64,000 nt of DNA from an uncultured virus (IMG/VR IMGVR_UViG_2896054739_000006) (lineage: Duplodnaviria; Heunggongvirae; Uroviricota; Caudoviricetes). A program made the translations under genes and the position numbers. The notes below the pieces were generated by a model. It was given only the letters and a program-made list of their open reading frames with translations. It had not been told where the DNA came from and ran no database searches. Location: IMG/VR virus record IMGVR_UViG_2896054739_000006, one strand, 5' to 3'. This document shows positions 29,627-49,428 of the stretch, in pieces (the first letter of the stretch is position 1; each line of letters begins with the position of its first letter).

Positions 29627-29628
29627 AG

Positions 29629-30411: not shown

Positions 30412-30510
30412 TTATCACCACCTCGCTATTTGTTTTGTTTTCATAAATAACAGAGGGAGTGCATTGCCTCCCTCTGTTATTTCGTCATACGGATACCGAT
30501 TGATTTAACA

Positions 30511-32802: not shown

Positions 32803-32845
32803 ATCCTCCTGCCTGTTATTTGGAGGAGCTTTAGACATATGACAA

Positions 32846-33649
32846 CTATCTGCAAATAGTTAAAGCATCCAGAAATTCTTTTGCGCTCTGGATGCTGTCA
32901 GCGGCTTCAATTACAATGGATTTGTCTATTTCGTAGATTTCTGCCCATGCGGCTTGTGTGTTCCCAGTCCACTGTCTTGCCGGCCACGGATGTGTGCCAC
33001 AAAGATACCCGTTCTTCCAATCGTAAATCGGTGGCAACTCCACTCCGTAGTAGTGGATAAATGCCAATATTTCTTCATGGCTCCAATCAGACAAAGGGCT
33101 ATACCTTGTCATGCCCTGCCCGTTGGTGTATATATTATCACCCTTTCCCACATAGTTTCCATCCGCCCTGCGCCGTCCAAGGAGCATAATATCAAGCTCA
33201 TGCTCTTTGTAATACTTTGCCTGCCCTCTGTGCTGGACAATATGAAACCATCGGGCTGCAGTCTTGCTCTCCTGCGGGAAAAGCATCTGAGGATGGGAAG
33301 CAAGCCATTTCATATCCTGCCCTGTGTTGATAATTTCCAATTCCGGCGGCTTGTGAGCCTTCACCCATTCTATAAATGCTTTGTACTCCAAATTGCAAAT
33401 AACGAGCACACAGGGGGCTATCCCCGCCATACGGCAGATTTCCCCCAGAACCAGGGAATCCTTTCCGCCGCTCCACGCAAATGCGGCTTTCTTCCCTTTG
33501 GTCTTTTTCTTTATCTCTGACACTGTCTTCTTAACCTGCTTATCCAGCTCTGCCTTAGTGACAAGTTCTTCAATCTTTGCGAATGTCTCCATCCAGTCTT
33601 CATTTTTAATCCGCTGCTTTCTCCCAAGTACGTCACCCATGGTTTTCAC
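32846..33649 (-). CDS. Second PAPS-reductase-family PP-loop protein
   Basis: AWSGGKDS, LGRRRADG, SPLSDWS. Confidence 0.8.
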   Translation of the reverse strand: MKTMGDVLGRKQRIKNEDWMETFAKIEELVTKAELDKQVKKTVSEIKKKTKGKKAAFAWSGGKDSLVLGEICRMAGIAPCVLVICNLEYKAFIEWVKAHKPPELEIINTGQDMKWLASHPQMLFPQESKTAARWFHIVQHRGQAKYYKEHELDIMLLGRRRADGNYVGKGDNIYTNGQGMTRYSPLSDWSHEEILAFIHYYGVELPPIYDWKNGYLCGTHPWPARQWTGNTQAAWAEIYEIDKSIVIEAADSIQSAKEFLDALTICR

Positions 33650-34037
33650 CCCGCTTTCTGCTCACTGCCAGAGCCACGGCTCCGGAGAGGATAACGGTCA
33701 GAAGGCTTCCTGCGGTCTTGCAAATGGCAATCCCCTTTATATTTCCATACCCGAACACTGGCAGTCCAATCAGCATGGCTGAGATAATTCCTGCCACTAT
33801 GCCCTGCGACGCAAGCCTTACGCCTTTAAGGGTAAGAACCGTTGGCAACAATGTAGAAGCTCTAAGGGTTCCATATATCAGGAAAAGATGTGTTACTGTC
33901 AGCCCCGGGATATTCGCTACTGTAATGCCGGCGGCCAACAGCAGAATCATGGAAAGTTTTGTTTTCCACATTGTATTTTTCTGAAAAATGTCTGTTGTGA
34001 GGGACGATATCGCACACAAGTTACTATCAATCGTCGA
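33633..34037 (-). pseudogene. Na+/solute symporter, 3' fragment (gene split by integrated element)
   Basis: LSTIDSNLCAISSL...D SSS motif and terminal TM helices; in frame with the 5' fragment after removing the insert. Confidence 0.9.
34027..34037. repeat. att core, integrase-proximal
   Basis: TCAATCGTCGA, identical to 47542..47552. Confidence 0.9.
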
Positions 34038-34109
34038 TAGTTCCCATTTTTTCATAAACCCCTGTAAATCCCTATATTTCTTACTATTCCTATAAAATAA
34101 AATCCTGTT

Positions 34110-34129
34110 TTACACCATCGTTGACACCA
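34110..34129. promoter_or_regulatory. Putative integrase arm-type sites
   Basis: TTACACCA / TTGACACCA; same motif three times at 47409..47436. Confidence 0.65.
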
Positions 34130-34139
34130 TTTATGAATT

Positions 34140-34179
34140 AAGGGCAGCAGTCTCAAATTCTGACACCTGCTGCCCTTTT
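34140..34179. terminator. Hairpin downstream of integrase
   Basis: AGGGCAGCAG...CTGCTGCCCT inverted repeat; T-tract on plus strand. Confidence 0.65.
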
Positions 34180-34198
34180 GCCCACTGCCTTTCCCGGC

Positions 34199-35386
34199 TT
34201 AAAACTGGTTTGCAATTTTTACAATCTCCTCCCTCTCCAATTCAGCTGTCACATGGGTATAAATGTTCAAAGTTATATTTACATCCGAATGGCCAAGATA
34301 ACTTTGTACTACCTTAGGCGGAATCCCCCTTTCCAATGCTCTTGTTGCGAACGTATGACGCATTGCATGTGGGCAGAACAGCTCCATCCGCAATGCCTCC
34401 CTTTCTTCCCGTTCCGCTGCGGCTTCCTCTTCCGTGTTCATTTTATTTATTATCTCCCTGATGAACTTTGAAACAGATACCCTCCAGAGTGGTTTGCCAA
34501 ATGGTGATGTGAACACCAGGTTTTCCAGCCCTTCCGCCGGCTCCCATTTCTCCCCAAGTTTCCAACGCAGCTTTGCCTGTTCAGCTTTATGCCGTTTCAG
34601 CCTTTTGGCAATTTCTGCAAGCATTGGCACCGTCCTTTTGCTGTTGGCCGTCTTTACCGGGCCTTTGTGGAGTTTTTCCCCTGCTATATTTACCATTGTC
34701 CCATTCACATGGATTTCCATATTTTTAAAATCTATATCTCCCCATTCCAGGGCCGTTATTTCCCCAATACGCATCCCGGTGGAAAACCCCAGGTAAAAAA
34801 TATCCGCATAGAACGGTTTTTCCTGTTCTGCATGCACAAGGAATCTTTTCTGTTCCTCTTCTGTCAATGCCCTTTTATGTACATTCTCCTTTTTCTCAGC
34901 TTTGGGGAGTACTGTCCGCTCCACTGGATTTGTCATAATTATGCCATTTAAATATGCCTGGCGGAAAAGAAGGTTGGAAAATGCCTTTATTTTTCCTATA
35001 TACCCCACGGAATAACCTTCTCCCAGCATCTTGTTTATAATCCGCTGGATATGTTCCGGGCGCACGGCCTGCAGCTTCATCTGTCCAATCATGCCTTTCA
35101 CATGCCTGTAATAATGCGTATCACTGGCAAATGTGGATTCCCTGACAATGTTTTTCCGGTACTCTTTTATCCAGGTCTGATACCATTCATCCACCGTTAT
35201 CCTGTCCGGCTTGGCATAAATGCCATGGTCTATTTCATATTTTGCATCCCTGAGCTTCTTTTGGACTTCCTTAAAGTCTTTGCCGTAAATCGTATGTCTC
35301 TGGCCGTTAAAGGTATATCTTGCCTGGTACCTGCCATCCTTACGAATAGAAACCCCGGGCGGTAAAGCTTTCTTACTGTCTGCCAT
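34199..35386 (-). CDS. int: Tyrosine recombinase / integrase
   Basis: RKDGRYQAR arm-binding N-terminus; TGMRIGE, KT, HAMRHTFATR, LGH, YTH catalytic motifs. Confidence 0.95.
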   Translation of the reverse strand: MADSKKALPPGVSIRKDGRYQARYTFNGQRHTIYGKDFKEVQKKLRDAKYEIDHGIYAKPDRITVDEWYQTWIKEYRKNIVRESTFASDTHYYRHVKGMIGQMKLQAVRPEHIQRIINKMLGEGYSVGYIGKIKAFSNLLFRQAYLNGIIMTNPVERTVLPKAEKKENVHKRALTEEEQKRFLVHAEQEKPFYADIFYLGFSTGMRIGEITALEWGDIDFKNMEIHVNGTMVNIAGEKLHKGPVKTANSKRTVPMLAEIAKRLKRHKAEQAKLRWKLGEKWEPAEGLENLVFTSPFGKPLWRVSVSKFIREIINKMNTEEEAAAEREEREALRMELFCPHAMRHTFATRALERGIPPKVVQSYLGHSDVNITLNIYTHVTAELEREEIVKIANQF

Positions 35387-35591
35387 ATATTCCAGCTCCT
35401 TCCTGTTACGCAAAGAGGCAGCAGGACCGCCTCATTCCATATTCAGTTTTTCTTGTGAACAATTATATTTTTGGTTATAATATTAATGCTTCGGCGTGCC
35501 TTATCATGCGCCTTGGCTCCTTTCAGGCTCTCCCATGTTGCAGCATGGCGGGAGCCTTTACTTTTCCACCCCCTTCCTTCCCCTTCGTTTT

Positions 35592-36005
35592 CTACTGCCG
35601 CTCCTGCTGGTTCTGGGCTGTGCACCATTCCTCAAACCGGATGCGGTCCACTAATAACCTGTCCCCAATGTAAACGGACGCCCCAATCTCTTTTACCAGC
35701 TTCCTGGCCCTCCCGTCGCTTATCCCCCCGGCATATTCCTGGAAGTCTTTAATGCTCAAAAGCCTCCTCTCTGTCAGCGGTATGCGTTCCTCCTGCTGCC
35801 CTATATCCATAAAACCTCCTTCCTTTTGTGATTCATACCAGGCAGCAGGTACTTTGCCGGGCATTACCATCGTGCCTGCTGCCTTCAATTTCCTCTGCAT
35901 TGCCTTTACCAGTTTCACAGCCTCTTCCTCTCTGATGGAGAGGTCTGCGGCTATGTCTGCCGCTGTATAAAACACTTTATGTCCTTCCATTGTCTGTTCC
36001 TCCAT
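35592..36005 (-). CDS. Two-domain excisionase-like DNA-binding protein
   Basis: Upstream of int; C-terminal half paralogous to 46959..47171. Confidence 0.65.
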   Translation of the reverse strand: MEEQTMEGHKVFYTAADIAADLSIREEEAVKLVKAMQRKLKAAGTMVMPGKVPAAWYESQKEGGFMDIGQQEERIPLTERRLLSIKDFQEYAGGISDGRARKLVKEIGASVYIGDRLLVDRIRFEEWCTAQNQQERQ

Positions 36006-36008
36006 TCC

Positions 36009-36338
36009 CTATAATATTCCCGGCTTTCCTTTTTTCGGCCGGAATTCCTGCCAGGATTCGTTTATTGCGTCCTCCATCTCCTTAAAAAACTCTGACACTT
36101 CATTTCCGTGTACCGGCTTTCCGGATGCAATCAAATCTTTCGACGCACTCATATACCCAATCATATAACATAATACTTTCCGCTGGCCCGTTTCCCCAAG
36201 TGCGGCAAACTTTTTATCTGCTGACTGGATTTTCTTCTGCTGTACCCTTGCCTTTTCCTCCTTCCTGCCCTTATAATCACTGATATTCACGACTTTTGCA
36301 TAAGCCGTGGCCCCCCTGGCTGTTTCTGTATTCTGCAA
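36009..36338 (-). CDS. Hypothetical protein
   Basis: GAGGTAGG RBS, TTG start. Confidence 0.55.
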   Translation of the reverse strand: MQNTETARGATAYAKVVNISDYKGRKEEKARVQQKKIQSADKKFAALGETGQRKVLCYMIGYMSASKDLIASGKPVHGNEVSEFFKEMEDAINESWQEFRPKKGKPGIL

Positions 36339-36464
36339 TTTTACCTACCTCTTTCCTTTGACAAGAGGCAGCAGGAATGTTATAATCCCTGCATACCCCT
36401 CAAATTTGCTTGTTTGCTGGGTTACCTGCCCCTATCAGAATGGCCGTTCTGGTAAGGGCATTTT

Positions 36465-36572
36465 CTATTCTTTTATAAATCCGGTAACTTCCCCGTCTTC
36501 AATGACGGCGGACATGCCTTCCTGCTCCAGTTTCCTGATACAGTCCTCAATCGTTAAACTGCTGTAATCCAT
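36465..36572 (-). CDS. 35-aa hypothetical protein
   Basis: AAGGAGG RBS; MDYSSLTIEDCIRKLEQEGMSAVIEDGEVTGFIKE. Confidence 0.5.
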   Translation of the reverse strand: MDYSSLTIEDCIRKLEQEGMSAVIEDGEVTGFIKE

Positions 36573-36636
36573 TCCCTGCCTCCTTATATTCCCTTTCTAT
36601 GCTAAAAAACTATGCGCTAGCCCACGGTTTTTTATT

Positions 36637-36801
36637 TTAAATGCTTTCAGCGGTGTTTTCCTCCACCAAAGGCCTGTGGCCGCTTCTATACTCATATAGG
36701 GGGCATTTTTTTACAAGGCACAGTTTTACTTCCTTCACCTGTCCACAACTGCACTCTAAACATTTGGCCCGGATTGCTTTCAGCGGTGTTCTTTTTGCCA
36801 T
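36637..36801 (-). CDS. 54-aa Cys-rich protein
   Basis: MAKRTPLKAIRAKCLECSCGQVKEVKLC...CPLYEYR; GGGGGA RBS. Confidence 0.6.
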   Translation of the reverse strand: MAKRTPLKAIRAKCLECSCGQVKEVKLCLVKKCPLYEYRSGHRPLVEENTAESI

Positions 36802-36813
36802 ATATGAATCCCC

Positions 36814-37248
36814 CTATACTGAAATATTTATCAATGCCCCGAAGGCTTCTTTGTAACCATATCCCCCAGTTATCTGTTTTAAAGTGCTTTTTACCTGTAT
36901 GCCTTTGTCAAGTACCGGCGCCATGCTCTGAGCCAGGCCTTTTGCCAGATAACCAATGTGTGCATATCCTATGCCCTTTATCCCTATCACAACCGCTACA
37001 GCATACCTGTCATAGGTATTAGCCTTGTCACGTCTAAGGTATACGGTCAGGTCATCTTCTTTCCGGCCGGCAATGTATTTTAATAACTGCTGGCGGTTCT
37101 CATACGTTACACCTGATACTCTGCAGGTCATGGATTCCTTAACACGTTTCCATGCAGTTTTAAATGCCTGGGATAAAGAATATCCGAGTTTATGTAACTG
37201 GTTTGCCATGGTTGCTACTGTCTGGCGAATTGTCCTTATGTCCTTCAT
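36814..37248 (-). CDS. HIRAN-domain protein
   Basis: VSGVTYENRQ...LRRDKANTYDRYAVAV...IGYL motif. Confidence 0.8.
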   Translation of the reverse strand: MKDIRTIRQTVATMANQLHKLGYSLSQAFKTAWKRVKESMTCRVSGVTYENRQQLLKYIAGRKEDDLTVYLRRDKANTYDRYAVAVVIGIKGIGYAHIGYLAKGLAQSMAPVLDKGIQVKSTLKQITGGYGYKEAFGALINISV

Positions 37249-37346
37249 GTGATTTCTCCTTTCCAAGTCTAAGCTCTGCCTTTGCTTTCCCTTTCGGTAC
37301 TCCCGTCTGCCGTGGCTGTTCTGTTCTCTTTGATGATATTAGTATA

Positions 37347-37439
37347 GCACATGGGCACATACATTTCCATTGACAGAATACCTAAAATTACATGTTCCCA
37401 TGTGTTTAACATTTGTGCATTATGCACATGGACACATGT
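37347..37439. promoter_or_regulatory. Repeated operator between divergent genes
   Basis: GCACATGGGCACAT, inverted CATGTTCCCATGTG, GCACATGGACACAT. Confidence 0.55.
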
Positions 37440-37533
37440 ATTGACTTATGATATAATATCATTGTACAGTGGAGAAGGTGCATCTATAAATTGCCGCCCC
37501 ACTGGAACGTATAAAAGAAAGAGGGTGCATCTT

Positions 37534-37779
37534 ATGTCAGATGAAAAGAAAAGCACATACACTGGTTACACGGAAGCCCGGAAAAAAGCCAATGAAAAAT
37601 ATCTGAAAGAATCCGTTGAGGATATCCGGATCAGAGTTCCCAAAGGCGATAAAGCAAAGGTGCAAGAACACGCCGCTACTATGGGGGAAAGTACAAATGC
37701 TTTCGTTGTACGTGCAATCACCGAGACAATGAACCGAGATAACCAAACCTCCCCGGCTTCAAAACCTGATAAGGAATAG
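37534..37779 (+). CDS. Ribbon-helix-helix regulator
   Basis: YTEARKKANEKY...IRIRVPKG...GESTNAFVVRAI. Confidence 0.75.
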   Translation: MSDEKKSTYTGYTEARKKANEKYLKESVEDIRIRVPKGDKAKVQEHAATMGESTNAFVVRAITETMNRDNQTSPASKPDKE

Positions 37780-37870
37780 TCGTCACAATTCTGGTATACC
37801 AGGTAACGGAATACGGTATCTTCTGGCAGCAGGTGCGCATACTATCCTCAATATGATTTCCTTATTCACA

Positions 37871-37928
37871 ATTATACGCCTATTTTATGAGTATATCTAT
37901 TGACATGCGCATGAAGCAGGCGTATAAT
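37871..37928 (+). promoter_or_regulatory. Consensus sigma-A promoter of hicAB with inverted-repeat operator
   Basis: TTGACA(37900)-17 bp-TATAAT(37923); ATTATACGCCT / AGGCGTATAAT inverted pair. Confidence 0.85.
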
Positions 37929-37951
37929 ACATAATATAAGGAGGACACAAT

Positions 37952-38134
37952 ATGACAGTTCGGGAAATACTAAAGATGCTTCGCAAAGATGGATGGTACA
38001 CCACCAATCAGGAAGGCTCCCACATAAGCCTAAAGCATCCAACAAAGCCCGGAAAAGTCACAGTACCAAATCACAACGGGGACTTGAAACCGGGAACACT
38101 AAACAGCATTTACAAGCAGGCGGGACTTAAATAG
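37952..38134 (+). CDS. hicA: HicA mRNA interferase toxin
   Basis: DGW....GSH...KHP.KPGKVTVP.H.GDL..GTL.SI.KQAGL. Confidence 0.92.
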   Translation: MTVREILKMLRKDGWYTTNQEGSHISLKHPTKPGKVTVPNHNGDLKPGTLNSIYKQAGLK

Positions 38135-38173
38135 TCCTACTGCCTGCGATTATCATAGAAAGGAGCGTAATTT

Positions 38174-38587
38174 ATGCAAAATTTAACTTATCTTGCAGTT
38201 TTTGAACCATCAACAGACGGCTCATATAGTATCTATTTCCCTGATTTACCCGGATGTATCAGTATTGGGGATAATCTGGAAGAAGCTGCACACATGGCAG
38301 CAGAAGCCGCAAGCCTCCATGTTTACAGTATGGAATGTGACAATGAGGAAATCCCCACTCCATCCGTGAACCTCTCCAAAGAAGATACAGAGGGAAATGT
38401 TGTAATGCCTGTCACAATCCACCCTGATTTATACCGGACAAAGCGTGACAATGAACGCATTAAGACAAACATTACTCTTCCAGCATGGCTCAAACGGATT
38501 GCAGAAGAACAGAAAGTCAATTACTCCCGTCTTTTGGAGACTGCCCTTATTGATTATTTACAGCTCCCAAAACAGGGCGGGAGGTAA
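38174..38587 (+). CDS. hicB: HicB antitoxin
   Basis: FPDLPGCIS.GD.LEEA; C-terminal TNITLPAWL RHH. Confidence 0.92.
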   Translation: MQNLTYLAVFEPSTDGSYSIYFPDLPGCISIGDNLEEAAHMAAEAASLHVYSMECDNEEIPTPSVNLSKEDTEGNVVMPVTIHPDLYRTKRDNERIKTNITLPAWLKRIAEEQKVNYSRLLETALIDYLQLPKQGGR

Positions 38588-38620
38588 ATCCTCCCTGCCG
38601 CCAGCAAAGGAGGCTGAACC

Positions 38621-39028
38621 ATGAAATATATCTATACCGCAACATTCGTGCCTAATGAGGACGAAACCAAATACTACTGCAAAGTGCCTGATCTTCCCGG
38701 ATGCATTACAACCGGCAGCAGTATTGATGATGCCATTGAAATGATTACCGATGCTGCCAGCGGATGGCTCGTTGTGGCCGAGGATGAGGGGAACGAAATC
38801 CCGGCCCCCACTCCCCAGCATAAACTGGATATTCCGGAAAATGCCACCTGCTCCATCATCCGCATTGATACGTTCGCATACCGGGCAGCAACCGACACCA
38901 GGGCAGTCCGTAAAAATGTCTCACTTCCTGCATGGATGGCCACCCTGGCAGAAAAGCGTGGGGTAAACTGCTCCCAGGTTCTCCAGGATGGACTTATGCA
39001 GCTGCTTAATGCCGGCCATGCAAGATAA
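38621..39028 (+). CDS. hicB: Second HicB-family antitoxin
   Basis: VPDLPGCITTG; VRKNVSLPAWM...VNCSQVLQ. Confidence 0.88.
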   Translation: MKYIYTATFVPNEDETKYYCKVPDLPGCITTGSSIDDAIEMITDAASGWLVVAEDEGNEIPAPTPQHKLDIPENATCSIIRIDTFAYRAATDTRAVRKNVSLPAWMATLAEKRGVNCSQVLQDGLMQLLNAGHAR

Positions 39029-39062
39029 GGCTGATTCAGCCAATCCACAGGAGGGCATAACC

Positions 39063-39206
39063 ATGTGGCAGGAATATCCTACAGAAGAAATACCCAATAC
39101 AGAAACTATATCCTCTATGGCGGAACTGGAAAGCGGCGGCGGTACCTTATTCACTGGGAACACAGAGGCTCTATTTGCCGAATTGACGGAGGAATTGCCA
39201 TGCTGA
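39063..39206 (+). pseudogene. C-terminal remnant of RelB/DinJ-like antitoxin
   Basis: IPNTETISSMAELESGGG.LF....EALFAEL resembles DinJ/RelB C-terminus; no toxin ORF follows. Confidence 0.45.
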
Positions 39207-39230
39207 TCTGTTCGGGTTATAGCCAAAAAT

Positions 39231-39262
39231 AAAAGGCATGTGCTCCTCTGCATATGCCTTTT
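39231..39262. terminator. Bidirectional terminator
   Basis: AAAAGGCATGTGC...GCATATGCCTTTT. Confidence 0.7.
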
Positions 39263-39304
39263 GCGTTGCCTATGTAATTTTAATCTCTGCCCTTAATCAC
39301 ACCC

Positions 39305-39928
39305 TTATGCATTATCTTCCAAAAATTCCACTATCCAGTCCCTCATTTCTCCTAATACTGGCTTAATTTTATCACAAGTCCTTTTCAACTGCTCTTCATC
39401 ATTTGCTGTATAAACAAATTTAATATTTATTTCACTTTCTAATTGACCAAGCATTTGAATCCTGTCCATAAGTTTCTCTGCACCTATATATTCCGAATCA
39501 GCAATTTTAGAGATTAATTGCGCTGAACAAATATGTAATAATTCTGATGCCTTATTCTTTGCCAACAAAGCATTAAACAGATCCTCTTTATCATTACCCA
39601 GCTTACTATCTGCATATTTACGAATATAAATACTCTCCCTGTTTATTGCCCCACAAATTTCTCCTGACAGTTTGCATATTTCATTGCAAAAAGCAATCCT
39701 ATGCTCTTTTCTTTGCAGTTCCCTGTTTTCTTTCAATGTTCTAAACATTACATACAAAGTAATCAGGCCTCCAACAATACCTCCTAGATAACTTCCCCAA
39801 AAACCAATCCAACCACTGGATGTATCGGTTATAACAAATTCAAACCTAAGCAAAAATGCAATTCCCAAGGGAATAATAAGCAATACAACAATTAACCCAA
39901 GCAAGATTTCTTTCCAATATTTTTTCAT
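39305..39928 (-). CDS. Hypothetical 2-TM membrane protein (accessory cargo)
   Basis: Two N-terminal TM helices, WIGFWGSYLGGIVGG; AT-rich. Confidence 0.75.
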   Translation of the reverse strand: MKKYWKEILLGLIVVLLIIPLGIAFLLRFEFVITDTSSGWIGFWGSYLGGIVGGLITLYVMFRTLKENRELQRKEHRIAFCNEICKLSGEICGAINRESIYIRKYADSKLGNDKEDLFNALLAKNKASELLHICSAQLISKIADSEYIGAEKLMDRIQMLGQLESEINIKFVYTANDEEQLKRTCDKIKPVLGEMRDWIVEFLEDNA

Positions 39929-40027
39929 TTGCTTGTCCTCTCCTTTAGCTCTTTATGTGCAAAAGTTAACGTGACTATGTTTATACCATCTCACAAAATA
40001 CAATCCTCTTCTCTACTTCCCTTATCT

Positions 40028-41203
40028 TTAGTCCTCTTCTTTCATCTTTTCTTCTAACCACTGCTCAAAATTGCCTTCTGGTTTCCATTTATAATATGAT
40101 ATTTCCATATTTTTATATGTAAACTGAGTATATGAATGGAGCAATCCTAGTTTTAATTTAAAAATCTTATATGCTCTAAGATAATAAGTTGTTGCATCTT
40201 TATACTCACTTTGATTTTTATACAATACTGCCAAGTTATTATAGCTAATAGCTGTTTCTGGATGATTCTCTCCCAGCATCTTTTCACTAATTCTCAAGCT
40301 CTTTTCATACAACTCTTGCGCTTTTGCATACTCTCCCTGCTCCTTATATACTAATGCCAGATTATTGTAGCTGCTGGCTGTATCCGGATGGTTCTCTCCC
40401 AGCGCTCTTTCACGTATCCTCAGGCTTTTTTGATGCAGTTCTTCTGCCTTTACATACTTTCCCTGCTTCCTATATACTGATGCCAAACAACTGTAGCTTG
40501 TAGCTGTGCATGGGTGGTTCTCTCCAAGAATCCTTTCATGCACCCTTAGGCTCTTTTCGAACAGTTCTTCTGCCTTCTCATACTCTCTCTGAGCCGCATA
40601 TACTAACCCTAAGTTATGGTAGCTGCTGGCTGTATCCGGATGACCCTCTCCCAGCACTCTTTCACATATCCTCAGGCTCTTTTCATACAACTCTTTCGCT
40701 TTTTCATACTCTCCTTGCTTCTCATATACTCCCGCCAGATTGCTATAGCTTCTGGCTGTATCCGGATGACCCTCTCCCAGCACTCTTTCACGTATCCTCA
40801 GGCTCTTTTCATACAACTCTTTCGCTTTTTCATACTCTCCTTGCTTCTCATATACTCCCGCCAGATTGCTATAGCTTCTGGCTGTATCCGGATGACCCTC
40901 TCCCAGCACTCTTTCACGTATCCTCAGGCTCTTTTCATACAACCCTTTCGCTTTTTCATACTCTCCCTGCTCCTCATATACCGATCCCATGTTGCTATAG
41001 CCGATAGCTACTTCTGGATGATTTTCTCCCCATGTCTCCCTATCGATTTTCAAAAGACATTTGTACAATTTTTCTGCTTTTCTATATTGCCCTACATAAT
41101 GTAACAAATATGCAAATTTACTTAATAAACCAATTTGCTCCAACTCCTTCCCCATATTTAACTTTTCCACAATTTTTTCAGAAAAAGGTATAAACTTCTG
41201 ACA
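40028..41203 (-). CDS. TPR sensor region of NLR-like protein (3' part after frameshift)
   Basis: About seven 42-aa TPRs (LGEGHPDTARSYSNLA); frame is open upstream of GTG 41170 (CQKFIPFSEKIVEK). Confidence 0.85.
   Translation of the reverse strand, partial: CQKFIPFSEKIVEKLNMGKELEQIGLLSKFAYLLHYVGQYRKAEKLYKCLLKIDRETWGENHPEVAIGYSNMGSVYEEQGEYEKAKGLYEKSLRIRERVLGEGHPDTARSYSNLAGVYEKQGEYEKAKELYEKSLRIRERVLGEGHPDTARSYSNLAGVYEKQGEYEKAKELYEKSLRICERVLGEGHPDTASSYHNLGLVYAAQREYEKAEELFEKSLRVHERILGENHPCTATSYSCLASVYRKQGKYVKAEELHQKSLRIRERALGENHPDTASSYNNLALVYKEQGEYAKAQELYEKSLRISEKMLGENHPETAISYNNLAVLYKNQSEYKDATTYYLRAYKIFKLKLGLLHSYTQFTYKNMEISYYKWKPEGNFEQWLEEKMKEED
40626..41003. repeat. 126-bp near-identical tandem repeats (TPR units)
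   Basis: Units start at 40626, 40752 and 40878. Confidence 0.9.
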
Positions 41204-42389
41204 TTAGTGCTGATCCACTATCCGGTATCTCCATATAGTCCCGACATGCCTCTATTAACCCTGTATGTTTTTCTGTATTAGGCTTATATTTCTCATAAAT
41301 AAACTGTGCAAATACTGGATGCATAGCATAACTTTCCTGCTCCACAGCAAACTGTAACCATCCTTTTTGATATAACCCCATCAGAATATCATCATCTTCA
41401 CTAACTCCAGCATCCGCAAGCAACCATTGGTTACACGTCTCTGCCGCCAAAGGAATATACGGAAATACAGAGAATGCCTCCAAAATATTCTGCTCTGCAT
41501 CTGTCAGACTTGACAAATCATACAGCACTTCATAGGATTCCTGGATATTAACAAGCTCCCCATTCTTGTGGAATGCCAGCCGGAAACCCTTCTGCCCCAG
41601 CTCTTCCCTCAGCTTTTCCACTGTCCAGGGTTTTGTACGTGCCAAATGGGCCAGAAGTTCAACCGTAATGGTGTGCCTGCCCGCCAGGTTTTCTATGATA
41701 TACTCCAGATCCTCAACTTCCTCCGGCCCAATCTTACCCCTGCTGCCCTCATACCGGATTTTCTCATAAATCTCCTTGCACTGCTCCATGTCAAGGAACC
41801 CTATCCTGTATGGCTCAAAGTCATCACTGAAAGATGCCTGTCTGGATGTCAATACTACCGCTCCTGGTATCCCTCTTAACCGTTGCAATCCCGGATCAGC
41901 GCCCAGCGTCTTGTCCACATTATCAACAAAAAGCAGCAGTTTCCCATCTGACGCCAGGTATTCCAGTTCCCTCCATGCCGCCTCCCGGTTATTCTCAGGA
42001 CTGTCCTGCTGCTTAAACTTTAAGCAGTTCTGCAGACTGCCGTCCATATCCCCGCTGTACTCAATATACCCGATATGCCGAAATGGTCCATTTCCATCCT
42101 CTGCATGCTTATTGAGATATTCCTCAAACAGCTTTCTGCAGATGTGTGTCTTGCCAATCCCACCCATGCCGCTTACAAGGACAGACTTCCGGCCCTCCTC
42201 TATCCTCTGGCGCAGTTCCTTAAGTTCCGTCTCACGCCCGGTAAAATAAGACACTGGCTTTATATTGGCATTATGCGTGACAACAAACTCACGCTCTGAT
42301 TCCTGATACATGGTAATGTACAAATCACGCCCTGCATATGGACCATTAAAAACACAGTTCTTATTTTTGTTCACTACTTCCGGTCCCAT
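41178..42389 (-). CDS. STAND (NB-ARC-like) NTPase with short N-terminal motif (5' part of NLR)
   Basis: FTGRETEL, GMGGIGKT Walker A, LLFVDNVD Walker B, LTSR sensor, MHP winged-helix motif. Confidence 0.9.
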   Translation of the reverse strand: MGPEVVNKNKNCVFNGPYAGRDLYITMYQESEREFVVTHNANIKPVSYFTGRETELKELRQRIEEGRKSVLVSGMGGIGKTHICRKLFEEYLNKHAEDGNGPFRHIGYIEYSGDMDGSLQNCLKFKQQDSPENNREAAWRELEYLASDGKLLLFVDNVDKTLGADPGLQRLRGIPGAVVLTSRQASFSDDFEPYRIGFLDMEQCKEIYEKIRYEGSRGKIGPEEVEDLEYIIENLAGRHTITVELLAHLARTKPWTVEKLREELGQKGFRLAFHKNGELVNIQESYEVLYDLSSLTDAEQNILEAFSVFPYIPLAAETCNQWLLADAGVSEDDDILMGLYQKGWLQFAVEQESYAMHPVFAQFIYEKYKPNTEKHTGLIEACRDYMEIPDSGSALMSEVYTFF

Positions 42390-42582
42390 TTATACTATCC
42401 CTCCCCACATATGAGCCATGGAATGTACTCTTTTTATTCTTATTAACCACCTTAGAATGGTCATCATTATTGCCGCAATTAATCGTCTGCATAATCTTTA
42501 CCACCTTACTTGCCGTAAAAACAGATACCAACAGCCCTGCTATAGAGCATACCCCACAAATAATATTAAACACATCCACCAC
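42361..42582 (-). CDS. Small membrane protein sharing an 18-aa motif with the NLR N-terminus (putative effector)
   Basis: AAAGGGGGAG RBS then GTG; hydrophobic N-helix; VVNKNKKSTFHGSYVGRD; overlaps NLR start by 29 nt. Confidence 0.8.
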   Translation of the reverse strand: MVDVFNIICGVCSIAGLLVSVFTASKVVKIMQTINCGNNDDHSKVVNKNKKSTFHGSYVGRDSINGTGSSEQK

Positions 42583-42794
42583 AATCTCCCCCTTTTTCAT
42601 TTCCCGTCTTTATACGGCATAACACTATTTACGGCCAGAAGAACACTCCCCATTTGATTCCACATACAAACCTGCTGCCTGCCCCAATCCTTTCATGGCC
42701 GTTATTTTGACCATTCTGCCCCTTTTCCCTTTTCAACGGTAAAAATATCGTCTAAGCCAATTTAAAACGGATTTGGGGCAATCTGACAACCACA

Positions 42795-42990
42795 GAGCCC
42801 TATCCATTCCCCTTCTGCCCTCCATGTTCCCGAACCATCCGCCGGACGTTCGGAAAACATTCCTTTGGCAGGCTCCATTCCTGCGCTTTAACCGAAACAT
42901 ATCCCGGTTTCATATCCGGACTATCCCGCTGCACAATTCTATAATCTTATCTGTCACTTTAATTGGAGTTGTTTCTTTTTTATAGCACAT
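42795..42990 (-). pseudogene. Degraded hypothetical gene
   Basis: AGGGGAG RBS, MCYKKETTPIKVTDKIIELCSGIV; continues after a frameshift as PDMKPGYVSVKAQEWSLPKECFPNV...NG-stop. Confidence 0.4.
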
Positions 42991-43471
42991 CTTCTCCCCT
43001 GTTCTTTTCTCTTATCATACACCAAAATATTCCAAAAAGAAATACCCCCTTCATCCTCTGGCCCTCTGGCATACCCTTTTATTTCCCCATACAGCCCCTT
43101 TATGGCGCCAAATGATAGAAAACATGCCTTTGCTCATAAACTGCCAAATTACTGTCCCTGCATGCGTCACAGACCCATATCTGACATGCAGCGTTGCATT
43201 AACCGTTTTGCGACCGTGGAATGCGAACGCTCGCTTTATTTCTTCCAAATGGCAGCAGGAGCAGGACACCTGGAACAGCGTGTTTTCTAAGGCTCCCCCA
43301 GCCTCTTTTCGTATTTCCAAAGGGCTGCAGCCCTGCATTCGTTTTGTTTTCCCAAAAGCGAACGTTCGGATTCATTCACGCATTTATGAAGATACCCTTC
43401 GTTCGTACTCCTCCCCTCCAGGTGCTCCCATGCCCCGCATCAGGCAGGGGCAGAAAAAAGCAGGGGGAAAT

Positions 43472-44233
43472 CTATTCTCCGCCCTGCTCCCGCAAAAACC
43501 TGTTTATAAAATACTGCTGGCCCTTACCCGTCACCACCGTTGTCCTGGTTATCCTGACGCTGCCGTCCGGATTATTGACCGTGCGCTCCTTTACTTCAAA
43601 CAGCTTCATCTCCATGCCCCGCTGTGTCGGCATATTATAATCCATCCCTTTCCTCCGGATTAAGAACCCTTCCTGCCTCATCCAGTCAAACAGCCTCTTT
43701 TCCCCGGTATCCACTCCGTTCTGGTAAAGAATTTTGGCCAGCTCCCCAATCAGTATGGAAGTGCTGGAAGATAACACTGCATCTGCAAACCGTTCTTTCG
43801 GCTTCATCCTCTGAATGGCCTGCTCCTGTTCTGCAATAGTTTTCTGTGCCTCTATCACTGCCAAAGCAATCAATTCTTTGCCCGTTGGCAGTGTTCCGGA
43901 ATTGCTCTTTTTATATCTCTTTTCAACCTGGATAAAATACCGCCTGACCTGCTTACCTTTTTCATTACGCTCCAGCATAGCCATTTCCTTTGCGGTATCC
44001 AACTGGATGATATGCTCTTTCATATTTTGACCAGAAGGCGTACAGATTTGTACAGCTTCAAAATCACCACCTTCCACTGCATCACTTTCGCCAAGGCGTC
44101 TCTCTGCCCATATTCTGTAAGGAGTACTCACCCCCAACACTTTATGCAGATCCGTACCATAAACAACCTTCTCTCCTGTACTGGCAGTATATACCGGCAC
44201 AAGTTCATTTTCTATCATACGCAACCGTTCCAT
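43472..44233 (-). CDS. Phage antirepressor (AntA N-terminal + KilA-C/ANT domain)
   Basis: LDTAKEMAMLERNEKGKQVRRYFI; MKPK..FADAV; TTVVTGKGQQYF. Confidence 0.9.
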   Translation of the reverse strand: MERLRMIENELVPVYTASTGEKVVYGTDLHKVLGVSTPYRIWAERRLGESDAVEGGDFEAVQICTPSGQNMKEHIIQLDTAKEMAMLERNEKGKQVRRYFIQVEKRYKKSNSGTLPTGKELIALAVIEAQKTIAEQEQAIQRMKPKERFADAVLSSSTSILIGELAKILYQNGVDTGEKRLFDWMRQEGFLIRRKGMDYNMPTQRGMEMKLFEVKERTVNNPDGSVRITRTTVVTGKGQQYFINRFLREQGGE

Positions 44234-44307
44234 TCTTGAAATCCCCCTTTTTGTCTTTATTCTGGCCCAGAGCCTGTGTTCAGGAAATGCCTTTTTCTCA
44301 TATCGGC

Positions 44308-45114
44308 CTATTTTACAATCCTGACGCTGCCTGCCATCTCCCCTTCCGTACCAAACAGCATAGCCGCAAGCCGCCTTTCATTCTCCCGGATATCTGCATA
44401 AACTGTGCTTTCACAGCACCCATATTCTTCGGCTATGGCAGCAGGGCAGGTCCCGGCAAGGCATTTCTCTAAAATCCCTGCTTTCCGGATATCGGTATCG
44501 ATACAGGCATGTTTATCATTACAGTAGCCGGAATACGCTTCAACTGCATCTGCAAACCGTACCATGATATCCCTTGTGAGTTTCCTGCCCTGTTCTACGG
44601 CCCCCCGCTCCTTTTTCCCAGGGAAAAGGCAGAGCACATATTCTCCTGCCATGCTGCGCAGGAGCCTGTTTCCATCCACCAGCATGCGGATAATCTTCGT
44701 TTTCTGTCCCGGCATCCCTGCTGCCGGCACACCCATGCACAGCACCAGCATTTCATCCATGCACCTGTCAATATAGTTCAGCGCCGTTTCCTTTGCCACT
44801 CCCAGCCTTGCGGCTATCGCCCTGCTCCCAACATGGACATCCACCATATACCGATAGACCAAAGCGTTATACCTGTTCTTTGCGTGTTCATCATGGCAGC
44901 AGGAAACATATTCCCGGTACTCTTTTAACAGCCTTGCCAATGCCTCTGCATTCCTGCCGCTCCGATAATGGGAAAATGTATTTTTCAAGACATCCCTGCA
45001 CCTTTTAACCTCCTCGTGTCTGATATCCCGGAAGATGGCTTCAGGAGACGGTAAAATTTGGCCATTGTGTGCATCCCTGTATTCCTTTGCAAAATAATCA
45101 TAAAAATACGTCAT
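44308..45114 (-). CDS. Hypothetical protein with two HTH-like segments
   Basis: IAARLGVAKETA and IAEEYGCCESTVYAD. Confidence 0.6.
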   Translation of the reverse strand: MTYFYDYFAKEYRDAHNGQILPSPEAIFRDIRHEEVKRCRDVLKNTFSHYRSGRNAEALARLLKEYREYVSCCHDEHAKNRYNALVYRYMVDVHVGSRAIAARLGVAKETALNYIDRCMDEMLVLCMGVPAAGMPGQKTKIIRMLVDGNRLLRSMAGEYVLCLFPGKKERGAVEQGRKLTRDIMVRFADAVEAYSGYCNDKHACIDTDIRKAGILEKCLAGTCPAAIAEEYGCCESTVYADIRENERRLAAMLFGTEGEMAGSVRIVK

Positions 45115-45127
45115 AATCCCTCCTGCA

Positions 45128-45988
45128 TTAAAGTAGCCAGCCGCTACCCATCCTGTCCACTTTATCCATGTCCACGTAATCACACAGACGTTTAGAATCC
45201 ACATGGTACCCCTCCCACATAAAGCCCTCCAGCTTTTCCCTGTGCCCTGAATGGAGTATTTTATAAAATCCTTTTTTTATCCTTTCCTCAACCGCCTGCC
45301 TGCTGCATCCAAATACTTCGGCAGTCCTGGCATAACTGTTTCTCTGATAATACACAAAGCGTATCATGCACACTGTTTTTGAATCCAGGATGGAAAGGGC
45401 CTCTTCCAGTTCCTCATGCAGTTCCCTCTGGTATTCACTGCTTCCAGCTAACTGTTCCATACTTTCATCCGTTGAAAGAATGTCGATAAGGCAATCGCCC
45501 CCTTTATCTAATATATATTCATCCAGGCTTTTGGTGGTCATTTTTAAAATAGTTTTCTCCAAATGGCACAGGGAACGGTGAGAAATATGCAGGGCTTTCC
45601 GTATTTCCTCTGCTTTTGGCTCCCGGTTATGCAAGGCTCTGTAATCCCGTTTAAATACAGCCAGTTTCCGCATTCTTGTTTTGAGATATTCCGGGATGCG
45701 GACCATAGAGGTATTCAGCCCGTTGTATCTGTAAACACATTTCCTCACGCTGTATTCCGCATATGTCAGAAACTTTACTCCTTGCTGGGATTTAAAAGAA
45801 TAAGCCGCTTCTATCAAACCTATAAACCCCTCCTGTAGAAAATCATTAAAATCCTGTTCCTCACAATGCCCTACATGCTTTTTTATACACTGCACCACAA
45901 AACCTTTGTTCTTCTCCCAAAGCCTTTCCTGATTCCCCGAAACGTCAATGCCCTGCTGTATCTGTTTCACAATTTCCTCATTTGACAC
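45128..45988 (-). CDS. Sigma-70 family RNA polymerase sigma factor
   Basis: DFLQEGFIGLIEAA..F....GVKFLTYA; RIP; REP..EEI; SLD; region-4 HTH. Confidence 0.88.
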   Translation of the reverse strand: MSNEEIVKQIQQGIDVSGNQERLWEKNKGFVVQCIKKHVGHCEEQDFNDFLQEGFIGLIEAAYSFKSQQGVKFLTYAEYSVRKCVYRYNGLNTSMVRIPEYLKTRMRKLAVFKRDYRALHNREPKAEEIRKALHISHRSLCHLEKTILKMTTKSLDEYILDKGGDCLIDILSTDESMEQLAGSSEYQRELHEELEEALSILDSKTVCMIRFVYYQRNSYARTAEVFGCSRQAVEERIKKGFYKILHSGHREKLEGFMWEGYHVDSKRLCDYVDMDKVDRMGSGWLL

Positions 45989-46045
45989 TGCTGCCGCCCC
46001 CTTTCCAGAAAGATACCGTTGCAGCAGCCCAAACCATCCATCTAT

Positions 46046-46093
46046 GGTAACATGAGGGTAACATGAGAGTAACAGCGTGGTAACAATGTTACC
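46046..46093. repeat. Iteron block matching the prophage origin architecture
   Basis: GTAACA at 46047, 46058, 46069, 46080 (11-bp period) ending in GGTAACAATGTTACC palindrome. Confidence 0.8.
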
Positions 46094-46288
46094 AGGAAAC
46101 AACAGCCTTAGAACCCGGCTGATATATATCCTCCCTTTCGGAACAGTCAAAGGCTTTCCCCCATACAGCCATATTTCCATTTCCGCATGCAGGTATCTCC
46201 CTGGCGTCAGAAAGAATTTTTGCCCCTTTTATCCCTCTTAGCCTGTTTTATTTTTTTAAAGGTATCTTATGGTAAACTTTATATATAC

Positions 46289-46427
46289 TGTTACACCATG
46301 TAACAAGGCAGGCACCCAAAAATCTGGTACAGTTGTTACGTGGTGTAACAAGGCTGTTATCAAAAAAACGGCATCTTGTTACATGATGTAACAAGATTGG
46401 GCAATTCTTGTTACGTGGTGTAACAAG
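46289..46427. repeat. Four TGTTAC-N5-GTAACAAG palindromes next to an AT-rich tract; putative element origin
   Basis: Copies at 46289, 46334, 46377, 46409; AT-rich 46245..46288. Confidence 0.8.
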
Positions 46428-46436
46428 GGTTTTAAC

Positions 46437-46850
46437 TTATGGCGGTTTCCAGCTTAACCATTTTTCGCTAAATCTGTATATGCTCCGCTTCTTTGCCGCA
46501 TAGCCGCTTGATATAATTTCAATGAATCCATTCTCAGCCAGCTTTTGCATATCCCTGTAGAAATCCCGGTGATTGGTTTTCGGATACAGGCCATACACAT
46601 CTGTAATAAGGGCATGGTTCAAATAAAAGCATTCATCCCCCTGAACGGCATCCATATCCGGGTAATCCGCCTGGGGCTTCCGCTTGCCATAATACTGGTT
46701 TTTGCAGTAAACATATAACATTCTCTGCCTGGCATTCAAATCTTTGAAAGCTGCAGAAATAAGCATGGAGTCATAAATATTGGCGCTTGTATCATTTGTC
46801 TTTCCGGCACTTTCAAATGCCTTAGGGGAATATTTTTTCTTCCTGCCCAT
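46437..46850 (-). CDS. Winged-helix DNA-binding protein, possible replication initiator
   Basis: AFKDL...RMLY...L.ENGFIEI.......SIYRFS; directly upstream of palindrome array. Confidence 0.55.
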   Translation of the reverse strand: MGRKKKYSPKAFESAGKTNDTSANIYDSMLISAAFKDLNARQRMLYVYCKNQYYGKRKPQADYPDMDAVQGDECFYLNHALITDVYGLYPKTNHRDFYRDMQKLAENGFIEIISSGYAAKKRSIYRFSEKWLSWKPP

Positions 46851-46958
46851 GCCAGCCCACTTACTCCTTCCCTTGTCCGGTTACACAATCAGCATCCTAA
46901 AACCTGCTGCCGCCTCACCCAAACCGGACATTCTTTTCGCCTCCAGGTCCATCCAGAA

Positions 46959-47171
46959 TTACGCCTCGCTGTGTTCGTCGCACCAGCGGTCAAATTTCAC
47001 CCGGTCAACCAATGTCCTCCGGCCTATTCTAAATAGTGCGCCCGTTGTTTTCATCAGCTCTAATGCAGTGTTCCGGCCAACGCTTGCATAGATGCAGAAC
47101 TCGTTGACATCAAGCAGCCTTTTATCTGACAATGTTACCAAGGTTTGGTTTGCTTTTTCTTTCTTCTCCAT
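46959..47171 (-). CDS. Excisionase-like HTH protein
   Basis: LLDVNEFCIYASVGRNTA...RIGRRTLVDR. Confidence 0.7.
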   Translation of the reverse strand: MEKKEKANQTLVTLSDKRLLDVNEFCIYASVGRNTALELMKTTGALFRIGRRTLVDRVKFDRWCDEHSEA

Positions 47172-47408
47172 GAAATTTTACCTCCATTCTTTGATTACTT
47201 GTGTTTATTAGGCATTAAACAATTAACTGGGTATCTCTATAAACATTATAACAAATCACGCTCTTATCCTTGTCATGGACACAACGCAACAGGTAATAGG
47301 AAAACTCCTCACTTTTTACAAATACGTGGAAATAAAAGCAATGAAAGTATAGAATAGCAAATAATAACAAATATTTATGTCAAGCACTTTTTCTATTCAT
47401 TTTCTGCC

Positions 47409-47436
47409 TGACACCAATACACCAAAATTGACACCA
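47409..47436. promoter_or_regulatory. Putative integrase arm-type sites
   Basis: TGACACCA-TACACCA-TTGACACCA. Confidence 0.65.
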
Positions 47437-47501
47437 CTTTTTTATATGCCCAATAAAAGCCCATAAACAAAAAGCGGGGAAAAATCCTGATAATTAGAGG
47501 C

Positions 47502-48533
47502 CTAAGGATATTTACAAATAAAGAAATAAACTGGATTGCTTTCAATCGTCGACAGAAGTCCCGATACAACCATAAACAGGAACGGAATAACCGCCCCTCC
47601 TGGGAATAGTGTGCTTATCAGTTCAAAATTAATTATTCCAGTATCCACTGCAACATATCCCATGCCAGAACCGATAAAGCCAAGCATCCCCATTGACAAA
47701 GGCACGATTCCAAACAGCAGCGCTCCCGCCAGGAAAGCCCTGCCTATTCTGTCTTTTCTGACACAGAATGCCCTCTGCCAAAAGCACTGGTCTCCAAATG
47801 GACCTGAGATAAGACCTATCGTTGTTGGAAGTCCGAACCCTAAAAAAATTTCCCATCCTCTTTTTGAGAATAGTGTTCCGGCATCCCCTGCGGCTCCTCC
47901 CAGCCCCATAACCAACGTTTCCAGCCCTCCACCATTCTTTATACCAAAAACGATAAAACCGATACTGGCGGCCAACATAAAGACCATCTGAACCGCATCT
48001 GTCAGTATTGAGGCTGTGATTCCCGAAAACTGCGAATACGAAAAGGCAATCACTGCCATAATAACCGTCATTGCTGTAAAAGGTATCCCGGTAAGCATAC
48101 TTAATATTTTGCTTCCAGCCAACAGCTGTACTCCTGTTGATAATGCCGACAATACACCAAGCTGGAACAAATATATATTTTTCACAGCTTTGGAATGATA
48201 TTTCTCATACATATAGCCGGACAATGTAATTCCTCCCGGAATCTCTTTCCTTATCTTTTTTGCAAAGGGAATGAACAGTATCAGACACAGCACATTTGGA
48301 ACCAGAAACCAAAAGAGTCCTGCAAAACCCTTCGTGTAGGCATTCTCGGTCGATGTAAACAAAGCCGGTGCCCATATCCATGTGGCCGCTATGCTCAAAG
48401 CCGACACCGTCCAGCCAGTATTCCTATTCCCGACACAGAATTTCTCGATATTGTCCTCTTTTTTTGTCATAAATACTGTTGCCCCAAACATTACCACTGC
48501 ATAGGCCAGCAGTACAAACAAAGTATAATCCAT
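47502..48533 (-). pseudogene. Na+/solute symporter (SSS family), 5' fragment
   Basis: F.VGNR, SIAATWIWA, ASILTDAVQ, DQCFWQRAF; truncated at LLSTI by the insert. Confidence 0.9.
47542..47552. repeat. att core, distal
   Basis: TCAATCGTCGA. Confidence 0.9.
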
Positions 48534-48737
48534 ATTTTTCCTCCATTTTTTTATTTTGAAGGAGCTTCATGCTTTCCTGCGTCTTTGCCTGATCCTCTCC
48601 TTTCCCAGAAAAACTGCATGAAAAAAGGAAGTCAAAAAACCTCAGACTTCCCTACACGTTTGATTTAGAATTTTACAGATACTATTTTCGCACATTTATA
48701 TTGTAATTGCAATGGAAACTTTTTTGAGATGGAGTAT

Positions 48738-49328: not shown

Positions 49329-49428
49329 GTTTTCGCACCTCCTTGAAATTTGTTTCCAATTCATATTGAATTATGATATAATGTAACTGTCTGTTGGGAG
49401 GGTTGCGAAAGCACTCTCCTTTTGCCTT

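What the first reader, a model, noticed from the sequence alone, without database searches (positions are those of the whole stretch)
33633..48533. A 13.5-kb integrative element nested in a prophage gene: putative new phage satellite
Seen: the prophage symporter is split into 47542..48533 and 33633..34026 by an element flanked by TCAATCGTCGA repeats. Precise excision gives 992+394=1386 nt, an intact 461-aa ORF reading ...SGLLSTIDSNLCAISS.... The insert has an integrase, xis-like genes, (T)GACACCA arm repeats at both ends, an antirepressor, a sigma factor, TA genes and defence cargo. It has no capsid, terminase, relaxase or primase-helicase. Inference: a satellite that integrates into its helper prophage rather than into a host gene; it does not match the PICI, P4 or PLE gene sets as I know them.
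Basis: partly seen in the sequence, partly recalled or inferred. Interest (0 to 1): 0.82.

Follow-up and report, generated by a model that had tools for sequence, protein, structure and literature searches.

The report
Satellite embedded in gut prophage gene
A 13.5-kb mobile element sits exactly inside a transporter gene at the head of a gut prophage's virion-building genes; it belongs to a family that almost always targets such phage genes and carries look-alikes of its host phage's replication origin and late-gene regulator, so it is most likely a phage parasite of a layout published only for enterobacteria.

Summary
Observation confirmed. An 11-bp core flanks 13,515 bp; its removal leaves a 461-codon symporter frame, and intact alleles are common (20 of 22 viral loci). 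The element belongs to a family: 19 of 20 mapped records sit in a prophage late-operon gene (3 symporter, 16 terL), 1 off-target. Their integrases form one clade split by site, with fixed arm-site spacing. It also encodes a tandem homologue of the helper's probable late regulator. Best reading: a helper-embedded phage satellite that gates the late operon until it excises. The layout is known (HE-PICIs, enterobacteria, 2023), but this is not a PICI by gene content. No excised circle, over-replication or packaging was seen. This scan noted the family before at a terL site (e1-5884404) and helper-iteron copies in E. coli satellites. New here: the symporter site and the origin-mimic arrays in this family.

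The parts
48738..49328 (-). Helper gene just upstream of the late operon; probable late regulator (Q/Ogr-like role inferred)
   Evidence: phrog_1558; conserved directly before the symporter in relatives; weak sigma-4-like HTH hits
48534..48737 (-). Helper late leader: -35/-10-like boxes, a second invariant -10-like box, hairpin plus T-run
   Evidence: 13-sequence alignment; hairpin -13.0 kcal/mol. The consensus scan did not list these sites; function inferred
47553..48533 (-). 5' piece of the prophage sodium:solute symporter gene (frame runs on to a stop at 47502 inside the insert)
   Evidence: Pfam SSF, TIGR00813, phrog_20720
47542..47552 (-). attL core
47409..47436 (-). Three arm-type sites, +116/+128/+136 from the core
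   Evidence: same offsets within a few bases in 7 of 7 elements
46959..47171 (-). Excisionase-like HTH gene (DUF6462), first core gene
   Evidence: conserved in relatives
46437..46850 (-). Winged-helix protein, probable replication initiator or origin binder
   Evidence: model pLDDT 85; fold matches include plasmid RepA_N and DnaB/DnaD winged helices but only Z about 7, not decisive; slot holds a replisome organizer plus DnaC-like loader in L052
46265..46434 (.). Four palindromic repeats followed by a conserved A+T-rich motif: the element's own probable origin
   Evidence: repeat sequence changes with the Rep subtype while the following motif stays
46046..46093 (.). Copy of the helper's origin repeat array, about 60 bp before the sigma gene
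45128..45988 (-). Sigma-70 family factor (regions 2 and 4)
   Evidence: start by comparison with relatives
44308..45114 (-). Tandem two-domain homologue of the helper's probable late regulator
   Evidence: profile matches to the helper gene: N half 95.1%, C half 98.0%, reversed controls 0.2% and 0.1%; model and sigma-4/Q21-like fold hits, Z under 7
43472..44233 (-). AntA-KilAC antirepressor-type gene
40028..42600 (-). Cargo: 79-aa ORF, NB-ARC-like ATPase and TPR array, split by a frameshift near 41200 in this copy
   Evidence: one 790-aa gene in L012
39305..39928 (-). Cargo: 207-aa membrane-anchored hypothetical protein
   Evidence: shared with G404
37952..39028 (+). Cargo: hicA, hicB, hicB toxin-antitoxin genes
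37351..37779 (+). Small DNA-binding protein (weak YlcI/YnfO-type hit)
36814..37266 (-). HIRAN-domain protein, core gene
   Evidence: present in all 7 relatives whose right part was fetched or earlier
35592..36338 (-). 109-aa hypothetical and 137-aa double-HTH excisionase-like gene
34199..35413 (-). Tyrosine integrase with arm-binding domain, pointing outwards to attR
   Evidence: tree
34110..34180 (-). Hairpin after int and two arm-type sites at -92/-80 from the core
34027..34037 (-). attR core
33633..34026 (-). 3' piece of the symporter gene
   Evidence: phrog_20720 positions 326-458
28211..33649 (-). Helper genes downstream of the site: PAPS-reductase-like, ParB-like, PAPS-reductase-like, ParB-like, terS, terL (Terminase_6 type, lacks the family's terL site)
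59794..60891 (-). Helper replisome organizer gene; three repeat arrays at 60276-60507 are the model for the element's copy
   Evidence: Pfam Phage_rep_org_N

Best explanation
It is a helper-embedded phage satellite of gut Clostridia (host probably Lachnospiraceae, inferred from relatives). SHOWN: precise site-specific insertion; a family with fixed gene order and att architecture; tropism for late-operon genes of one myovirus group; copies of helper origin repeats; a tandem homologue of a helper gene. INFERRED, in order: (1) while integrated it is copied passively when the helper is induced; (2) because it lies co-oriented between the helper's late promoter and terS, late transcription runs into its xis genes and int, it excises, and the symporter gene and late operon are restored, so virion building waits for its exit; (3) the circle replicates from its own Rep plus repeats and/or recruits the helper's replisome organizer through the copied repeats, which may also drain that initiator from the helper; (4) antirepressor, sigma factor and tandem regulator tune helper gene expression; (5) it is packaged in helper particles by an unknown signal. 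The symporter site is probably a derived target that opens helpers whose terminase lacks the usual terL site.
For: Core unique and frame restored; the same holds for L052/L012 (461 aa), G401 (493 aa) and G402 (454 aa from the start chosen). 19 of 20 mapped records in prophage late-operon genes. Integrases: one clade 100/99 with symporter, terL-A and terL-B branches; the 12 nearest outside integrases showed no phage late gene next to them on manual reading of the flanks. Arm spacing fixed, 7 of 7. Own-helper origin match 6 of 6 pairs, 0 of 222 control stretches as high; the window and G401 elements each match their own helper and not the other's. Both halves of the 268-aa protein match the helper gene before the late leader. 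Mobility: an off-target copy with a 7-bp core (G406); the near-identical element joined to a diverged symporter allele in runs X14 and X18. Both independent symporter-site carriers have a Terminase_6-type terL, against 1 of 18 other helpers whose terL was in view.
Against: No excised circle: 0 attP matches in IMG/VR, none among the 15 of 20 joints listed. No over-replication in four bulk assemblies (contigs only). No terS, capsid gene or recurrent pac-like stretch shared with helpers. The empty site in X14 is in a sibling phage and need not come from excision. Fold matches for Rep and the tandem regulator are all Z under 8. The late promoter and regulator are assigned by position and conservation only. 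Origin-mimic hits are short (32-47 bits), the origin windows were drawn by me, and some elements match another helper of the same repeat type better than their own. Four of 7 further elements had no hit above control level (three incomplete, one with its own initiator).
Confidence: 0.75

Rival explanations
1. Passenger in cis: the element travels only as part of the composite phage genome. The symporter is dispensable for virions, so late transcription reads through and no separate satellite particle is made.
For: No packaging genes or pac-like match. All copies seen are integrated, with flat depth. The target here is an accessory gene.
Against: 16 of 20 mapped records split terL, which a composite cannot do without excision. 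13.5-20.4 kb on top of a roughly 55-kb genome should exceed a headful (size limit recalled, not tested). Origin arrays and Rep would be superfluous.
Confidence: 0.12
2. Domesticated brake or defence island: it mainly protects the cell by holding the prophage's late genes broken, soaking up phage initiators with decoy origins and carrying defence cargo; it spreads rarely and opportunistically.
For: Cloned phage origins give phage-encoded resistance in Lactococcus (passage in PMC8965321). Some elements carry arrays for several helper types (G402 matches three). NB-ARC/TPR, TIR-like and HicAB cargo. Integrase split in G402 and G406.
Against: Intact integrase, two xis-like genes, antirepressor and conserved att arms in most copies. 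Repeated colonisation of new sites and helpers. It is compatible with, not exclusive of, the satellite reading.
Confidence: 0.08
3. An integrative mobilizable element moved by conjugation, or a decayed second prophage, that hit the phage gene by chance.
For: Weak Tn916-type arm-domain and ICEBs1-Xis hits. One copy lies in IME-like DNA (G406). Several genes are of phage origin.
Against: No relaxase hit. 19 of 20 in phage late-operon genes at three exact sites. Conserved gene order without any structural gene across elements of only about 70% nucleotide identity.
Confidence: 0.05

Closest known systems
Helper-embedded PICIs (HE-PICIs; founder 11capE of E. coli NRG857c; Tommasini, Mageeney and Williams 2023, PMC10111431)
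   Same: Inserted in, and co-oriented with, helper late genes; one integrase clade with site-specific subclades; repeated arm motif at fixed distance on both sides of the core; no replacement sequence; occasional off-target copies.
   Different: Host group (Clostridia, not Enterobacterales); int at the promoter-distal end pointing outwards; no AlpA, primase or capsid gene; winged-helix Rep, sigma factor and tandem regulator instead; target here is an accessory transporter gene ahead of terS; helper-origin copies (the paper's main text has no hit for iteron, replisome, sigma or symporter; supplements not seen).
PICIs / SaPIs (core set as in SatelliteFinder, PMC10085698)
   Same: 10-20 kb, tyrosine integrase, xis-like and regulatory genes, no tail or lysis genes, variable cargo.
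   Different: No primase-replicase, terS or capsid-morphogenesis gene detected; integrates in a prophage.
Satellite P4 (PMC8628076)
   Same: Carries a homologue of the helper's late regulator (P4 delta versus P2 Ogr; that delta is itself a tandem is recalled, not from a call) and an antirepressor-type gene.
   Different: No alpha primase-helicase, Sid or Psu hit; unrelated regulator family; different site and host.
PLEs of Vibrio cholerae
   Same: Sigma-70-like gene and a RepA-type initiator are PLE markers (PMC10085698 passage).
   Different: PLEs sit in the chromosome and parasitise a lytic phage; no PLE-specific marker was searched for or hit.
Q-dependent regulatory cassette of lambdoid phages (PMC9388147)
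   Same: Regulator gene, promoter, second -10-like box, terminator, then late genes, as in the helper's leader; Q21 binds as two protomers, which a tandem fusion could imitate.
   Different: No sequence match to a Q family; only a Z 5.7 fold match to Q21, below the level that means much.

Membership tests
HE-PICI | [quoted passage not shown] | tested here: met
   All core genes on the late-operon strand; site lies between the probable late leader and terS; 16 relatives in terL. That the symporter is a late gene is inferred from position.
HE-PICI | Single integrase clade with subclades by site | tested here: met
   for this family's own clade
HE-PICI | Integrase belongs to the enterobacterial HE-PICI clade; attP carries the doubled TGTATTGC motif | tested here: inconclusive
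   Arm motif here is TGGTGT-type; HE-PICI integrases were not put in the tree
HE-PICI / PICI | AlpA (or Stl/MerR) regulator next to int, with int leading the element | tested here: not met
   No Phage_AlpA hit; int is last and points outwards
HE-PICI / PICI | Primase-replicase module | tested here: not met
   No primase or helicase family hit in the insert ORFs; a winged-helix Rep takes the slot
PICI | terS and/or capsid-morphogenesis gene | tested here: not met
   some relatives carry a C-terminal piece similar to the helper's DUF2213 protein
Phage satellite (any) | Excises and replicates upon helper induction | tested here: inconclusive
   No attP in IMG/VR or in four assembled runs; none of these was a known induction experiment
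Phage satellite (any) | Packaged in helper virions and transferred | not testable with these tools
   Needs virion sequencing or a transfer assay
P4-like | Alpha, Sid, Psu, delta (Ogr family), epsilon | tested here: not met
   No such Pfam or PHROG hits
IME / ICE | Relaxase or conjugation genes | tested here: not met
   No hit; a bare oriT was not tested

The most novel reading that the evidence does not exclude
A Gram-positive satellite family, independent of PICIs, that controls its helper at three levels without any packaging gene: it gates the whole late operon by sitting in its first gene or in terL; it carries exchangeable arrays copying the replication origins of one or several helper types, so that the helper's own initiator licenses (or is drained by) the satellite; and it encodes a covalent dimer of the helper's late regulator.
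Probability: 0.45. Interest if true: 0.88.

Novelty: new variant of a known kind. Interest (0 to 1): 0.72.

Why it matters
It extends helper-embedded satellites from enterobacteria to common gut Clostridia with an unrelated gene set, which points to convergent evolution of the lifestyle. It shows integrase retargeting from terL to an accessory gene in helpers with another terminase. It gives a sharply testable idea: satellites exploiting helper replication initiators through copied origin repeats. In practice such inserts make intact gut prophages look defective or oversized. A cultured commensal, Eubacterium plexicaudatum ASF492, carries a terL-site member, although its integrase is split in that assembly.

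Tried and rejected
attP circle search in IMG/VR with a two-arm pattern: 0 matches. Laying four assembled runs: no go-back joint among the 15 of 20 joints shown; flat depth in X6 and X8. pac or cos mimic: element-versus-helper BLAST in 6 pairs gave no recurrent shared stretch besides origin arrays, the regulator and a DUF2213-like piece. Rfam gathering scan of 30000-50000: 0 hits. Promoter/terminator consensus scan was near shuffle level for terminators (23 versus 17.0 +/- 4.1) and did not list the helper leader sites, so it is not used as support. INPHARED: no close integrase (best 35.5%), no tandem-regulator match, one unannotated symporter match. PDB sequence search with the helper regulator alignment: nothing meaningful. 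ESM Atlas: only hypothetical or HTH clusters. Fold searches: top Z 6.8 and 7.2, common folds; Foldseek no E below 0.001. L078 and L118 are remnants or fragments with no mappable site and were left out of the count of 20, as were the five internal metagenome contigs L098-L102. Eleven of 19 Rep homologues and L057/L058 lie in other contexts and were not followed. Literature searches found no paper on this family; the library lacks most subscription papers and supplements were not read.
Full report
1. Observation. The 11-mer lies at 34027-34037 and 47542-47552 and has only these two copies in the 4.70-Mb genome. The insert is 13,515 bp, and its removal leaves a 461-codon frame without stops. The two pieces cover one PHROG profile end to end. 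The surroundings are a co-oriented myovirus prophage: lysis, baseplate, sheath, tape measure, capsid, portal and terminase on one side, replication and recombination genes on the other, with repressor-like genes at the contig end. The helper's own integrase is not on the part of the contig examined. The host is probably a mouse-gut Lachnospiraceae, inferred from named relatives and from the runs that hold the DNA (20 of 24 listed, 10 studies).

2. Empty sites. Of 22 viral loci found with the 3' piece, 20 have the gene intact, 1 (L011) is interrupted like the window and 1 is too short to tell. Three of 400 other genomes of the family have a close homologue; all three are intact and in the same phage context. 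In run X14 a contig joins 34026 to 47542 exactly, in a phage about 96% identical. In X14 and X18 the nearly identical element (18 and 14 differences over 3.5 and 1.7 kb) is joined to a clearly different symporter allele (105 differences in 500 nt). This suggests recent movement between helpers, though recombination between phages could also give it.

3. A family. Searches with the integrase, Rep and tandem regulator gave 20 records with at least one mapped junction: symporter 3 (window, L011, and the divergent L052+L012, 15.3 kb, integrase 73% identical), terL site A 15, terL site B 1 (G401, 20,440 bp), and 1 off-target in IME-like DNA (G406). Some are near-duplicates or two halves of one element, so about 16 are distinct. 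Order is fixed: attL, xis-like, Rep, sigma, tandem regulator, antirepressor, cargo, HIRAN, xis-like, int, attR. Arm sites lie at +114-116, +126-128 and +135-144 on the left and -92 to -95 on the right in 7 of 7 elements. The 9 integrases tested form one clade (100/99) among 29 rows, with terL-B basal and the symporter branch sister to terL-A (11 mapped records had no integrase in view and are not in the tree). The window's terL is of another family and lacks the terL-A core; so does the helper of L012 by family, against 1 of 18 other helpers. The numbers are small, but they fit a retargeting from terL to the symporter.

4. Replication module. The 137-aa ORF models as a winged helix. Fold hits include staphylococcal plasmid RepA and DnaB/DnaD domains but are not decisive. 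Palindromic repeats follow it; their sequence changes with the Rep subtype while a following A+T-rich motif is constant in the 13 spacers printed. In L052 the slot holds a replisome organizer and a DnaC-like loader. That is good circumstantial evidence for Rep plus origin.

5. Helper-origin copy. The only strong nucleotide match between the insert and its helper is 46040-46094 against three arrays inside the helper's replisome organizer gene. The 15-bp palindrome has three copies in the genome: one in the element, two in that gene. Such in-gene repeats are the origin in lactococcal temperate phages and give resistance when cloned in trans (PMC8965321, passage). For six element-helper pairs (window, G401, G402, G403, G404, G411+G408) the element matched its own helper's repeat region at 32-47 bits, above all 222 control stretches of 15 kb (maxima 29-32). 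The helpers carry four different repeat types. G402 carries arrays for three of them. Caveats: windows were set by eye, elements are up to 20 kb against 15-kb controls, G403's replication gene is on a different contig from its element, the G411+G408 pairing is inferred from both halves matching one intact terL at 99-100%, and 4 of 7 further elements had no hit above control level.

6. Late-gene control. Both halves of the 268-aa protein match the helper gene that precedes the symporter, and in G402 the similarity shows at nucleotide level. Between that gene and the symporter, 13 phages share -35/-10-like boxes, an invariant second -10-like box and a hairpin with a T-run; another hairpin precedes terS. 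This is the layout of a Q-type cassette (PMC9388147, passages), so the symporter is probably the first late gene, and the insert separates the late promoter from terS and all structural genes. This step is inference; no family model names the regulator. A satellite homologue of a helper late activator has a precedent in P4 delta (PMC8628076, passages).

7. What is missing. No excised circle, no over-replication and no packaging signal were found. How the element enters particles is open.

8. Comparison and novelty. It works like an HE-PICI (PMC10111431; I read parts 1, 4, 5, 6 of 8 and searched passages; supplements not seen) but fails PICI membership on AlpA, primase, terS and capsid (core set from PMC10085698, passages). 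Passages of PMC11318856 and 10.64898/2026.07.08.737213 do not describe it. Searches found no paper on a clostridial family of this kind. This scan noted a 20.4-kb terL-site member before (e1-5884404; the size equals G401 here) and helper-iteron copies in E. coli satellites. These are unchecked notes found after my own results, and not independent support. Verdict: real, a new variant of a known kind, interest 0.72.

Noticed in passing
L089:1588-2514, L095:521-1447, L096:482-1426, L048:4791-5843: Some elements carry, between xis and Rep, a gene with a weak DUF6273 or FGE-sulfatase-like hit; three near-identical copies differ mostly in the C-terminal tip, as targets of diversity-generating retroelements do (assignment recalled). 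A satellite-borne variable binding protein is possible.
   Followed up: partly
L049:7866-8174, L089:5384-5842, L095:4318-4779: Pieces similar to the C-terminal part of the helper's DUF2213 head protein lie inside three elements; possible captured scaffold or capsid-size factor.
   Followed up: no
window 30511-33649 and 47553-48533: The helper module symporter + two PAPS-reductase-like + two ParB-like genes is conserved just before terS in many gut phages; function unexplained (DNA modification with an imported substrate is a guess).
   Followed up: no
window 34026-34055; L012:11335: In both independent symporter-site elements attR supplies an in-frame ATG before the 3' piece, which could keep translation coupled to the next gene.
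   Followed up: no
L090 (G402), L094 (G406): The integrase is split by a frameshift near residue 205 in both, while near-identical G407 and G408 copies are whole; assembly error, decay or slippage not resolved.
   Followed up: no
window near 41200: NB-ARC and TPR parts are out of frame here but one gene in L012; runs X14 and X18 show a small insertion at this place.
   Followed up: partly
L087:1935-2820 (G401): Besides its own repeats and the own-helper array, this spacer holds further short repeat clusters that may copy origins of other helper types.
   Followed up: no
L012:3096-3935: A TIR-like domain gene precedes the NB-ARC/TPR gene in the second symporter-site element.
   Followed up: partly
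L057, L058, L061, L062, L069-L077: Homologues of the winged-helix Rep occur beside unrelated integrases or in phage replication regions: possibly further small element families.
   Followed up: no
window 47190-47400: A TTGACA box right after the left arm sites and an extended -10 box about 110 bp further on are conserved in the 8 left ends printed; possible element promoter(s).
   Followed up: no
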